From: a phage
Sequence record: OZ335955.1
Reading direction: 5' to 3' (one strand)
DNA length: 47,047 nucleotides
A program made the position numbers and the translations under genes. Under the pieces are notes generated by a model, which did no database searches, had not been told where the DNA came from, and saw nothing but the letters and a program-made list of their open reading frames with translations. Below, piece after piece: positions 23,780-24,659 of the stretch (within the stretch, counting starts at the first letter, position 1; every line of letters begins with the position of its first letter).

Positions 23780-23806
23780 AAAGCCCCGAAAGGGGCTTTG
23801 TTTTAT
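23780..23806. terminator. rho-independent terminator (bidirectional)
   Basis: aaagcccc-gaaa-ggggcttt hairpin followed by T-run. Confidence 0.65.
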
Positions 23807-24003
23807 TCTTGTGGTGGCTCTGGTGGATTAGCCCAATGGGTAGCTGGAATGCCGTGACAGCGGTCTAATTCACTAACAAATATCTTGCTTCCAATTCCAT
23901 CTACTGTTTTGCATATTGCTGTTCTAACAACACCACGAAACGACGTGAGAACCATTTGACCTTCTTCTGGCATCCGCTCACTGCACTTAATCCACTGACT
24001 CAT
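23803..24003 (-). CDS. DUF551-like protein
   Basis: MSQWIKCSERMPEEGQMVL...THWANPPEPP matches the DUF551 pattern. Confidence 0.55.
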   Translation of the reverse strand: MSQWIKCSERMPEEGQMVLTSFRGVVRTAICKTVDGIGSKIFVSELDRCHGIPATHWANPPEPPQE

Positions 24004-24143
24004 ATCACCTTATCCTCATCAAAAATCACACCAATCACACGAAGCAAGTCTTTCGCCATGCGTTCAGCTTCTTCGTAATCATAACCTGCATCGACATACA
24101 GTTCAGTATAGAAAATCAGGTCAACTTTTGTTTGCTCGTTCAT
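24000..24143 (-). CDS. small acidic protein (47 aa)
   Basis: coupled ORF (ATGA overlaps on both sides); not in ORF track. Confidence 0.3.
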   Translation of the reverse strand: MNEQTKVDLIFYTELYVDAGYDYEEAERMAKDLLRVIGVIFDEDKVI

Positions 24144-24346
24144 TTCTTGTCGCCACTATTAACTAATACCCAAACAAGTGCCGCAACCCATCCAATAAAG
24201 CTCCATCCGACAAGAATATTCAGAACACAGATTGCAGTCGTGTTTACGTGCTTGCGTTGCAGAGCCACAAAAGATGGCAGAAGGTACGCAAATATCACCA
24301 AACCAACGAAAAACAACAAAATAACAACGTCCATAGCTAACCTCAA
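24140..24346 (-). CDS. superinfection immunity family membrane protein (Imm_superinfect-like)
   Basis: LLPSFVALQRKHVNTTAICVLNILVGWSFIGWVAALVWVL matches the family signature LPS-IA--R-H-N--AI---N---GWT-IGW--AL-WAL. Confidence 0.65.
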   Translation of the reverse strand: MRLAMDVVILLFFVGLVIFAYLLPSFVALQRKHVNTTAICVLNILVGWSFIGWVAALVWVLVNSGDKK

Positions 24347-24506
24347 TTGTTAATAACTTGTTTATATTACATGCCATTCTTTTCGCACAAAGCAACAGAT
24401 ACATCACGCAACTGCTCTTTGGTCATATCCTTGCGCGCATAAACCATTTCTACGATAGCAAGTCCGATTATTTCTGCTGATTCGTTGTTTTTTGTGGAAC
24501 CCTTAA

Positions 24507-24659
24507 CTACCACCTCGGAAGATTCTTGCTGATACCGTTATCGCGAGCATCGGCAGTGTTTAATGCGATGTCGCCAATGTTCTTGCACACCTCGGAAGTT
24601 GCTACAGCAGAGAAAGAGGAAACCAATAGTGCAGATGCGATCAACATTTTAATTTTCAT
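24507..24659 (-). CDS. small secreted protein, apparently frameshift-truncated
   Basis: signal-peptide-like MKIKMLIASALLVSSFSAVA; GAGGTGA RBS; protein-like reading continues to 24367 in another frame. Confidence 0.3.
   Translation of the reverse strand: MKIKMLIASALLVSSFSAVATSEVCKNIGDIALNTADARDNGISKNLPRW

What the first reader, a model, noticed from the sequence alone, without database searches (positions are those of the whole stretch)
23803..24659. Leftward moron cassette between major tail and tail chaperone genes, with a superinfection-immunity-family membrane protein
Four minus-strand ORFs are wedged between convergent terminators/promoters in the tail gene block: DUF551-like, a 47-aa acidic protein, a 68-aa two-TM protein matching the Imm_superinfect signature, and a signal-peptide protein. 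This is a candidate superinfection-exclusion or membrane-defence module.
Basis: partly seen in the sequence, partly recalled or inferred. Interest (0 to 1): 0.55.

Follow-up and report, generated by a model that had tools for sequence, protein, structure and literature searches.

The report
Phage accessory operon with Imm homologue
A small, separately transcribed gene cassette inserted among the tail genes of a Skate-like Salmonella/E. coli phage carries a true relative of phage T4's superinfection-immunity membrane protein. Sister phages already carry that annotation and the neighbouring exported-protein gene is broken here, so the finding is real but fairly ordinary.

Summary
Four leftward ORFs lie between the major tail gene and the DUF6246/tape-measure genes. 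They are bounded by a bidirectional terminator (23780-23799) and a conserved leftward promoter (24727..24699).

Profile searches confirm DUF551 (23803-24003) and Imm_superinfect (61 bits against a cut-off of 27.9). The Imm-like protein is 36% identical to T4 Imm itself. It most likely starts at the ATG at 24334, giving 64 aa rather than 68.

The "signal-peptide protein" is the 5' fragment of a conserved 97-aa exported protein. A 1-bp deletion between 24518 and 24519 has broken it, in this genome only.

Comparison of 38 distinct cassettes shows a true moron, because the flanking genes abut in distant relatives. It is a mosaic, not one module. The 47-aa protein is always present. Imm (30/38) and the exported protein (24/38) come and go independently. 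All four genes are under purifying selection.

The exported protein belongs to an uncharacterised family of secreted helical proteins with two conserved cysteines. It shows no detectable sequence or fold relationship to T4 Spackle.

The most likely function of the Imm-like protein is an inner-membrane block to DNA entry by superinfecting phage. This is inferred and untested. Sister genomes already annotate the gene this way, so it is a new member of a known kind, of modest interest.

The parts
23056..23772 (+). Left flank: major tail protein gene with a C-terminal Ig-like domain. Not part of the cassette.
   Evidence: PHROG 853 'major tail protein', E 5.2e-83. Weak BiPBP_C and Hoc-like hits at residues 155-237.
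23780..23799 (.). Bidirectional intrinsic-terminator hairpin (AAAGCCCC-GAAA-GGGGCTTT). It ends the rightward major-tail transcript and the leftward cassette transcript.
   Evidence: Found on both strands, with an 8-bp stem, 5 GC pairs and T-rich tails. Annotated as two terminators at the same place in phage Skate.
23803..24003 (-). ORF A: 66-aa DUF551 protein. It is the last gene of the operon and its ATGA start/stop overlaps ORF B.
   Evidence: Pfam DUF551, E 2.2e-11, 44.9 bits against a cut-off of 22. It is highly polymorphic among relatives (32-91% identity, 58-88 aa). dN/dS is 0.14 within its own allele class.
24000..24143 (-). ORF B: 47-aa acidic protein (pI 4.1). It is the invariant core of the cassette and its function is unknown.
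   Evidence: PHROG 17424, E 8e-36, function unknown. No Pfam, NCBIfam or PADLOC match. Present in 38/38 distinct cassettes at 87-98% identity. dN/dS is 0.047.
24140..24334 (-). ORF C: 64-aa two-helix membrane protein of the T4 Imm (Imm_superinfect) family. The listed ORF runs to a TTG at 24346, but the ATG at 24334 with GAGG 7 nt upstream is the likely start.
   Evidence: PF14373, 61.2 bits against a cut-off of 27.9. 36% identity to T4 Imm over 53 ungapped residues, E 3e-11. Two hydrophobic segments at 1-27 and 32-60. AlphaFold helical hairpin H2-26/H30-63, pLDDT 79. dN/dS is 0.06.
24367..24659 (-). ORF D (pseudogene here): a conserved 97-aa exported four-helix protein with two conserved cysteines. 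A 1-bp deletion between 24518 and 24519 splits it into 24507-24659 (50 aa: signal peptide plus about 28 residues) and an out-of-frame remainder at 24367-24513.
   Evidence: Alignment with Skate, CECAV_048 and Bas79 shows a single gap. Both halves hit PHROG 2315. All 120 listed database homologues but two are 97 aa. It gives a single full-length match in every related locus that has it. Model pLDDT 79.6 with four helices.
24699..24727 (-). Leftward sigma-70-type promoter of the cassette (TTGACA-N17-TAGATT, preceded by TG), followed by a conserved leader and Shine-Dalgarno sequence, AATGAGGTGAGTTATG.
   Evidence: It is one of three perfect copies of TTGAC-N16-TGTAGATT in the window, all at the heads of transcription units. 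The exact 12-base form with up to 1 mismatch also gives 3 matches against 0.19 expected, and 0 of 100 shuffles reach 3. Both hexamers are conserved in nearly all related loci, whichever gene comes first; the two loci headed by the 91-aa gene keep only the -10 element.
24739..24747 (+). Rightward extended -10 promoter-like element (TGATATAAT), back-to-back with the leftward promoter and upstream of the DUF6246/tape-measure genes.
   Evidence: Read from the sequence. Invariant in all related loci. The same GTGATATAATC lies upstream of the major tail gene at 23010-23020.
24768..25484 (+). Right flank: DUF6246 protein, in the position of a tail assembly chaperone, followed by the tape measure gene at 25484-27862. 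Not part of the cassette.
   Evidence: Pfam DUF6246, E 4.5e-72. TMP_3, E 1e-55, for the next gene. The chaperone role is inferred from position only.

Best explanation
The region is a real moron: a small leftward operon with its own sigma-70-type promoter and a shared bidirectional terminator. It was inserted between the major tail gene and the DUF6246/tape-measure genes in the Skatevirus/Macdonaldcampvirus clade of virulent siphophages.

It is a plug-in locus rather than one machine.
- A constant promoter and leader, plus a constant 47-aa acidic protein, are always present.
- They are combined with interchangeable cargo.
- The promoter-proximal slot holds envelope proteins: the 97-aa exported protein D, a divergent 112-aa version of it, an Imm-family 2-TM protein, or a 91-aa protein with a hydrophobic C-terminal tail.
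- The distal slots hold nin-region-type genes (NinX, DUF551).

In this genome the order is: frameshifted D, Imm-like, 47-aa protein, DUF551.

The Imm-like protein is a true homologue of T4 Imm. The proposed mechanism has three steps, all inferred.
1. Host RNA polymerase transcribes it independently of the tail genes, probably early.
2. It inserts into the inner membrane as a helical hairpin.
3. It prevents the DNA of later-arriving phages from crossing the inner membrane. That protects the infected cell's resources, and perhaps stops progeny from wasting genomes on already-infected cells.

This mechanism would suit phages whose receptor (O-antigen or capsule) is too abundant to be masked.

Shown: gene structure, family membership, homology to T4 Imm, moron status, mosaic distribution, purifying selection, and the frameshift in D.

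Inferred: timing of expression, membrane topology, the exclusion function, and its target range.
For: - Family membership and direct homology to T4 Imm.
- Two transmembrane-length helices.
- The flanking genes abut, with a gap of about 70 bp, in 13 more distant relatives (L045-L057). The cassette is therefore an insertion.
- Low G+C.
- The terminator and promoter are present. The promoter belongs to a three-copy phage promoter family and is conserved across the clade whichever gene follows it, with two partial exceptions.
- ATGA overlaps A/B and B/C indicate one operon.
- dN/dS is 0.05-0.14 for all four genes.
- 38 distinct cassettes show independent presence and absence of Imm and D, with B constant.
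- GenBank relatives already annotate the gene as a superinfection immunity protein.
- T4 Imm, with Spackle, confers superinfection exclusion (PMC7677548) and appears to be a plasma-membrane protein (PMC6832632).
- Skatevirus phages rely on O-antigen as their only receptor. The BASEL authors consider complete O-antigen modification during lytic infection likely futile (bioRxiv 10.1101/2024.09.12.612763).
Against: - No member of this phage group has been tested for exclusion.
- T4 Imm is the only family member I know to have been characterised, and its own mechanism is poorly understood. It is said to resemble a holin and also affects lysis inhibition (PMC6832632).
- The gene is absent from 8 of 38 close relatives, so it is dispensable.
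- No PADLOC defence model matched, apart from a weak hit to the TM part of '2TM-TIR' at E 0.0012.
- Early expression is inferred from promoter sequence only.
Confidence: 0.6

Rival explanations
1. The Imm-like protein is a lysis-timing or membrane-integrity factor (holin-like or antiholin-like, or protecting the infected cell's membrane from damage by secondary adsorption). On this view it does not block DNA entry.
For: T4 Imm is reported to resemble a holin, and imm mutants have shortened lysis inhibition (PMC6832632). The protein is a small 2-TM hairpin like class II holins. Relatives of the neighbouring D family sit directly beside endolysin-holin-spanin genes in Roufvirus-like phages.
Against: The gene is far from this phage's own lysis genes. 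In the collinear HC6 genome those lie at about 7.4-8.6 kb. It lies behind the promoter motif that also heads the tRNA/HNH unit and a cluster of small genes. Its absence from 8/38 relatives argues against a core lysis role.
Confidence: 0.15
2. Imm-like plus exported protein D form a two-part exclusion system analogous to T4 Imm plus Spackle. D would act in the periplasm, for example by inhibiting a tail-associated peptidoglycan hydrolase, and Imm would act at the inner membrane.
For: D matches Spackle in gross features: a 97-aa precursor, an N-terminal signal peptide, an all-helical bundle of about 75-77 residues, and a conserved cysteine pair near the ends of the mature chain (Spackle features from PMC7677548). 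D lies directly upstream of Imm in 16/38 cassettes.
Against: - A profile-sequence comparison aligns only the signal peptides (hhalign probability 20%).
- D and Imm occur independently: 14 cassettes have Imm only and 8 have D only.
- D is frameshifted in this very genome.
- Contexts of distant D relatives show no consistent partner.
Confidence: 0.1
3. The cassette is selectively neutral hitch-hiking cargo, such as recombination debris at a permissive site, with no function in the phage life cycle.
For: Gene content varies greatly between close relatives. One gene is broken here.
Against: - All four genes show strong purifying selection (dN/dS 0.05-0.14).
- The promoter, leader and terminator are conserved.
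- ORF B is present in 38/38 cassettes.
- In phage seszw the A-B-D cassette stayed at full coverage in every reduced genome listed, down to 36.7 kb. Only MZ375352 (35,993 bp) lost part of it, the ORF A end (PMC9825161).
Confidence: 0.05

Closest known systems
T4 Imm (gene imm, 83 aa; type member of Pfam PF14373 Imm_superinfect)
   Same: Homologous: 36% identity over 53 ungapped residues, including the LPxF(V/I)AL-R...GWSxIGW...W core. It is a small, basic, two-hydrophobic-helix protein encoded by a virulent phage.
   Different: It is shorter (64 aa) and lacks T4 Imm's roughly 18-residue charged C-terminal tail and part of its N-terminus. It is encoded by a 47-kb siphophage rather than a T-even myophage. 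It sits in a moron inside the tail gene block, not in an early replication-gene cluster. Its function and target range are untested.
T4 Spackle (gp61.3), periplasmic inhibitor of the gp5 tail lysozyme
   Same: ORF D's intact orthologues share the gross design: a 97-aa precursor, a signal peptide, a small helical bundle and one cysteine pair. Like Spackle in T4, they are encoded by a phage that also carries an Imm-family gene.
   Different: There is no detectable sequence or fold relationship. D has its own signature (C-x3-G...A-RD-x-G...Y...C). D is not obligatorily paired with Imm, and it is a pseudogene in this window.
Morons of lambdoid phages (independent promoter-gene-terminator units inserted between conserved late genes; named from my own knowledge of the Hendrix/Juhala definition)
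   Same: It is inserted between genes that are adjacent in relatives. It has its own promoter and terminator, a lower G+C and the opposite orientation.
   Different: It is found in virulent phages, so it cannot act through lysogenic conversion. It is multi-gene and internally mosaic, with a constant leader and a constant 47-aa gene.
nin-region small genes of lambdoid phages (NinX PF10765, DUF551 PF04448)
   Same: ORF A is DUF551. Many relatives carry a NinX gene between A and B.
   Different: Here they lie in a tail-region moron rather than between the replication and Q genes. Their function is unknown in both settings.
Cor (T1/phi80) and Llp (T5) receptor-blocking lipoproteins
   Same: They are small exported proteins of virulent siphophages used for superinfection exclusion (mentioned in the BASEL paper).
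   Different: ORF D has a signal-peptidase-I-type signal with no lipobox cysteine (read from the sequence). This phage group uses O-antigen rather than a porin. No sequence similarity was seen in any search.

Membership tests
Imm_superinfect (PF14373, T4 Imm family) | Profile match above the curated gathering score over the whole domain | tested here: met
   61.2 bits against a cut-off of 27.9, E 8.9e-17, profile positions 2-42 of 42. PHROG 1039, E 1.8e-22.
Imm_superinfect (PF14373, T4 Imm family) | Direct pairwise similarity to the characterised protein, T4 Imm | tested here: met
   BLASTP: 19/53 identical, no gaps, E 3e-11 against NP_049660 translated from NC_000866.
Imm_superinfect (PF14373, T4 Imm family) | Small protein with two membrane-spanning hydrophobic helices | tested here: met
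   Hydropathy segments at 1-27 and 32-60. AlphaFold2 helices at 2-26 and 30-63, pLDDT 79.
Imm_superinfect (PF14373, T4 Imm family) | Confers exclusion of superinfecting phage at the DNA-entry step | not testable with these tools
   Requires expression and challenge experiments. No published test was found for Skatevirus-type phages.
Moron (independent transcription unit inserted in a late operon) | Flanking genes are adjacent in related phages that lack the insert | tested here: met
   In 13 loci (L045-L057) with DUF6246 at 38-46% identity, the major tail gene ends about 70 bp before the DUF6246 gene.
Moron (independent transcription unit inserted in a late operon) | Own promoter and terminator | tested here: inconclusive
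   Sequence signals are present and conserved. No transcript data are available.
Moron (independent transcription unit inserted in a late operon) | Base composition differs from the surrounding genes | tested here: met
   G+C is 0.402 at 24001-24500, against 0.49-0.51 in the neighbouring 500-bp bins.
T4 Spackle family (for ORF D) | Sequence or profile similarity to Spackle | tested here: not met
   hhalign of the 22-sequence D-family profile against Sp aligns only 19 signal-peptide columns, at 20% probability.
T4 Spackle family (for ORF D) | Same fold as the solved Spackle structures | tested here: not met
T4 Spackle family (for ORF D) | Binds and inhibits a tail lysozyme | not testable with these tools
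   Needs a biochemical assay.
DUF551 (PF04448), for ORF A | Profile match above the gathering score | tested here: met
   44.9 bits against a cut-off of 22, full-length match 1-68/68.
Known anti-phage defence systems (PADLOC-DB) | Any cassette protein matches a defence-system model | tested here: not met
   Only marginal hits were found: 2TM-TIR at E 0.0012 on the TM region of C, and an effector at E 0.018 on B.

The most novel reading that the evidence does not exclude
The locus is a dedicated 'envelope-defence slot' of O-antigen- and capsule-dependent virulent siphophages. A fixed early promoter, leader and 47-aa protein drive interchangeable envelope proteins. On this reading the D family is a new class of periplasmic superinfection-exclusion or lysis-control factor that arose independently of T4 Spackle. 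The D family comprises secreted four-helix proteins with a conserved cysteine pair and the signature C...ARDxG...Y...C. Structural relatives occur in many Burkholderia, Bordetella, Pseudomonas and Xanthomonas phages.
Probability: 0.12. Interest if true: 0.6.

Novelty: new member of a known kind. Interest (0 to 1): 0.3.

Why it matters
If the Imm-like protein does exclude superinfecting phage, T4-type inner-membrane immunity would not be confined to T-even myophages. Small virulent siphophages, whose O-antigen or capsule receptors cannot be masked, would use it too. That matters for designing phage cocktails against Salmonella and E. coli, because Skate-like phages are popular biocontrol candidates and could exclude their cocktail partners.

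The comparative picture gives natural 'knock-in/knock-out' sets for testing each gene: sister phages with Imm only, D only, or both. The uncharacterised D family and the invariant 47-aa protein are the parts with real discovery potential.

Tried and rejected

2. Programmed frameshift in ORF D. Rejected, because in all relatives with the gene it is in frame.

3. Error-rich assembly as the cause of the frameshift. Comparison of all HC6 ORFs of at least 60 aa with the window found no other split gene. A single assembly error still cannot be excluded.

4. Genomic context of distant D-family members (Luteibacter chromosome, an 83-kb contig, Roufvirus-like phages). No consistent partner was found, apart from a divergent position beside the lysis genes in Roufvirus-like phages.

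5. The third large protein search, with the D-family profile, returned almost only the close orthologues.

6. The Foldseek afdb50 library was not available.

7. The supplementary gene-essentiality tables of the seszw genome-reduction paper are not held. The deposited mutant genomes were used instead.

8. PADLOC and NCBIfam gave nothing useful for any of the four proteins.

9. The generic promoter scan alone was not significant: 7 found against 5.4 expected. The promoter call rests on conservation and the three-copy motif.

Full report
**What is there.** Between the major tail gene (23056-23772, +; PHROG 853, E 5e-83) and a DUF6246 gene (24768-25484, +) lie four leftward ORFs. The DUF6246 gene is followed by the tape-measure gene (TMP_3).
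- A: 23803-24003, 66 aa.
- B: 24000-24143, 47 aa.
- C: 24140-24346, 68 aa from a TTG.
- A 50-aa ORF with a signal peptide at 24507-24659.

A/B and B/C overlap by ATGA. A perfect hairpin with T-tails on both strands lies at 23780-23799, and a leftward TTGACA-17-TAGATT lies at 24727..24699. G+C drops to 0.40 within the cassette, against 0.49-0.51 around it.

**Where the window comes from.** The window is a Skate-like virulent siphophage genome. 155 GenBank phage records match the region, 150 of them at 90-95% identity. They include Salmonella phages Skate, INT55 and CECAV_048, E. coli phages C1 and Bas77-81, and Shigella Sf11. The best whole-region relatives (HC6, ST1UNAM) reach about 90% identity over 77% of a 24-kb query, so this is a new species-level member. 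Several of these records already annotate the C orthologue as a 'superinfection immunity protein'.

**Family tests.**
- A is DUF551 (44.9 bits against a cut-off of 22).
- B matches only PHROG 17424 of unknown function. It is acidic, with pI 4.1.
- C matches Pfam Imm_superinfect at 61.2 bits against a cut-off of 27.9, over the whole 42-position profile.
- I translated T4 imm from NC_000866. C aligns to it without gaps over 53 residues at 36% identity, E 3e-11.
- C has two hydrophobic segments and is predicted to be a helical hairpin, with helices at 2-26 and 30-63 and pLDDT 79.
- C most likely starts at the ATG at 24334, giving 64 aa. GAGG lies 7 nt upstream, and all relatives have a 195-nt gene.

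**The fourth gene is broken here.**
- In Skate, CECAV_048 and Bas79 the gene next to the promoter encodes a 97-aa protein.
- An alignment shows that the window lacks one base between 24518 and 24519.
The rest of the gene (24367-24513) is out of frame but otherwise conserved.
- All listed database homologues but two are 97 aa, and every related locus with the gene gives one full-length match.
- No other gene shared with phage HC6 is split in the window. The change looks like a recent real mutation, although a single assembly error cannot be excluded.

**Transcription signals.**
- The leftward promoter is one of three perfect copies of TTGAC-N16-TGTAGATT in the window. With up to 1 mismatch, the 12-base form gives 3 matches against 0.19 expected, and 0 of 100 shuffles reach 3.
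- The other two copies head the leftward tRNA/HNH unit (23004..22976) and a rightward cluster of small genes (44221..44249).
- Both intergenic regions flanking the major tail gene share a back-to-back layout with a rightward TGATATAAT element.
- Both hexamers, the leader AATGAGGTGAGTTATG and the rightward element are conserved in nearly all clade members, whichever gene comes first. The exceptions are the two loci headed by the 91-aa gene, which keep only the -10 element and the rightward element.
- This is sequence-level evidence for transcription by host RNA polymerase independently of the tail genes. No transcript data exist.

**Comparative anatomy.** I fetched 55 IMG/VR loci through the DUF6246 protein and added GenBank loci.
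- In 13 distant relatives (DUF6246 at 38-46% identity) the major tail gene ends about 70 bp before the DUF6246 gene. The cassette is therefore an insertion, a moron in the classical sense.
- Within the clade, 38 distinct cassettes fall into 11 architectures.
- B is present in 38/38.
- Imm is present in 30/38.
- D, or its divergent 112-aa form in phages E1 and SB28, is present in 24/38.
- Sixteen cassettes have both, 14 have Imm only, and 8 have D only.
- A NinX gene (PF10765) is optionally present between A and B.
- A occurs as several very different alleles (32-91% identity).
- Two loci add a 91-aa protein with a hydrophobic C-terminal tail. One has an Imm variant with an extra N-terminal hydrophobic extension.
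- The cassette is thus a mosaic of independently exchangeable genes, not one module. The promoter-proximal slot consistently holds envelope proteins.
- All four genes are under purifying selection. dN/dS is 0.047 for B, 0.061 for C, 0.12 for D and 0.14 for A, compared with 0.031 for DUF6246.
- In the seszw genome-reduction experiment (PMC9825161), every reduced genome listed kept the A-B-D cassette at full coverage, down to 36.7 kb. Only MZ375352 (35,993 bp) lost part of it, the ORF A end. seszw lacks Imm, so this says nothing about Imm.

**The exported protein D.**
- An AlphaFold2 model of an intact orthologue has pLDDT 79.6. The mature part scores 84-94 and forms four helices.
- A profile search of 1.84 billion representative proteins found only 24 relatives at E of 1e-3 or better. 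Most are 93-114 aa with signal peptides.
- Across the family the invariant positions are Cys25, Arg39 and Cys92. Asp40, Gly42 and Tyr74 are nearly invariant.
- Relatives occur in Roufvirus-like Klebsiella and Vibrio phages, where the gene heads a small operon divergent from endolysin-holin-spanin genes.
- Foldseek against BFVD finds many uncharacterised exported proteins or lipoproteins of about 100 aa, from Burkholderia, Bordetella, Pseudomonas and Xanthomonas phages, with TM-scores of 0.6-0.78.
- D shares gross features with T4 Spackle: a 97-aa precursor, a 75-aa helical mature protein and one disulfide (PMC7677548). I therefore tested that idea directly. The profile aligns only to Spackle's signal peptide, and Spackle appears in none of the fold searches.
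- D is not a Spackle family member. A functional analogy remains possible but unsupported.

**Mechanism.**
- Most likely (confidence about 0.6), the Imm-like protein acts as T4 Imm is thought to act. It would be made from a host-type promoter, insert in the inner membrane, and prevent DNA of later-arriving phages from reaching the cytoplasm.
- This would fit phages whose only receptor is O-antigen. The BASEL authors consider complete O-antigen modification during lytic infection likely futile.
- Homology, membrane character and selection are shown. Timing, topology, phenotype and target range are inferred.
- Rival 1: a role in lysis timing or membrane protection. T4 Imm resembles a holin and affects lysis inhibition (PMC6832632).
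- Rival 2: a two-part Imm plus D system. This is weakened by their independent distribution and by D being broken here.
- Rival 3: neutral cargo. This is contradicted by the selection data.

**Verdict.** However, the gene is already annotated in the same way in sister phages. The 'module' is a mosaic, and its exported member is a pseudogene in this genome. It is a new member of a known kind, of modest interest (0.3). The parts with discovery potential are the uncharacterised D family and the invariant 47-aa protein B.

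Noticed in passing
window 22976-23004 (-), 24699-24727 (-), 44221-44249 (+): There are three perfect copies of a phage promoter consensus, TTGAC-N16-TGTAGATT. Each sits at the head of a transcription unit: the tRNA/HNH unit, the cassette, and a rightward cluster of small genes. This looks like one promoter class, possibly the early one.
   Followed up: partly
window 23010-23020 (+), 24738-24748 (+), 4251-4261 (+): GTGATATAATC, an extended -10-like element, recurs. Two of the copies lie back-to-back with the leftward promoters on either side of the major tail gene. That gene is thus bracketed by two similar divergent promoter modules and ends at the bidirectional terminator.
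   Followed up: partly
window 21884-22363 (-), 22450-22525 (-), 22532-22619 (-): An HNH_3 endonuclease gene (E 1.8e-22), tRNA-Arg(TCT) and tRNA-Ser(GCT) lie leftward between the tail terminator gene (21506-21883) and the major tail gene. This is a second variable insert. Skate and HC6 carry tRNA-Ile there and no HNH gene, and CECAV_048 carries tRNA-Ser.
   Followed up: partly
L064 2501-2791, L065 2501-2791, L066 2501-2791: In Roufvirus-like Klebsiella and Vibrio phages the D-family gene is the first gene of a small operon transcribed divergently from endolysin-holin-Rz. This is a different locus from the one in Skate-like phages and hints at an envelope- or lysis-related role.
   Followed up: partly
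GenBank MZ375297-MZ375355, OL9647xx (phage seszw mutants); L006 1524-2170: Every CRISPR genome-reduced seszw derivative listed kept the DUF551/47-aa/exported-protein cassette at full coverage, down to 36.7 kb. Only MZ375352 (35,993 bp) lost part of it, the DUF551 (ORF A) end. The 47-aa and exported proteins may therefore matter even in laboratory culture. The paper's gene table was not available to confirm this.
   Followed up: partly
L037 3082-3396 (-); protein P0148: An Imm-family variant of 104 aa carries an extra N-terminal hydrophobic extension of about 40 residues in phage swi2-like genomes.
   Followed up: no
L028 3136-3411 (-), L043 3136-3411 (-): A 91-aa protein with a hydrophobic C-terminal tail occupies the promoter-proximal slot in two relatives. 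Its N-terminal part is weakly similar to Tail_spike_N (E 0.0015, below the cut-off).
   Followed up: no
L041 2604-3403 (-), L042 2366-3404 (-): In more distant relatives (DUF6246 at 65% identity) the same site holds a different leftward cassette: a 222-aa protein with no Pfam match, or NinX plus small ORFs. It is still headed by a homologue of the 47-aa protein at about 50% identity.
   Followed up: no
window 23056-23772 (+), residues about 155-237: The major tail protein carries a C-terminal Ig-like decoration domain, with Hoc-like and BiPBP_C hits.
   Followed up: no
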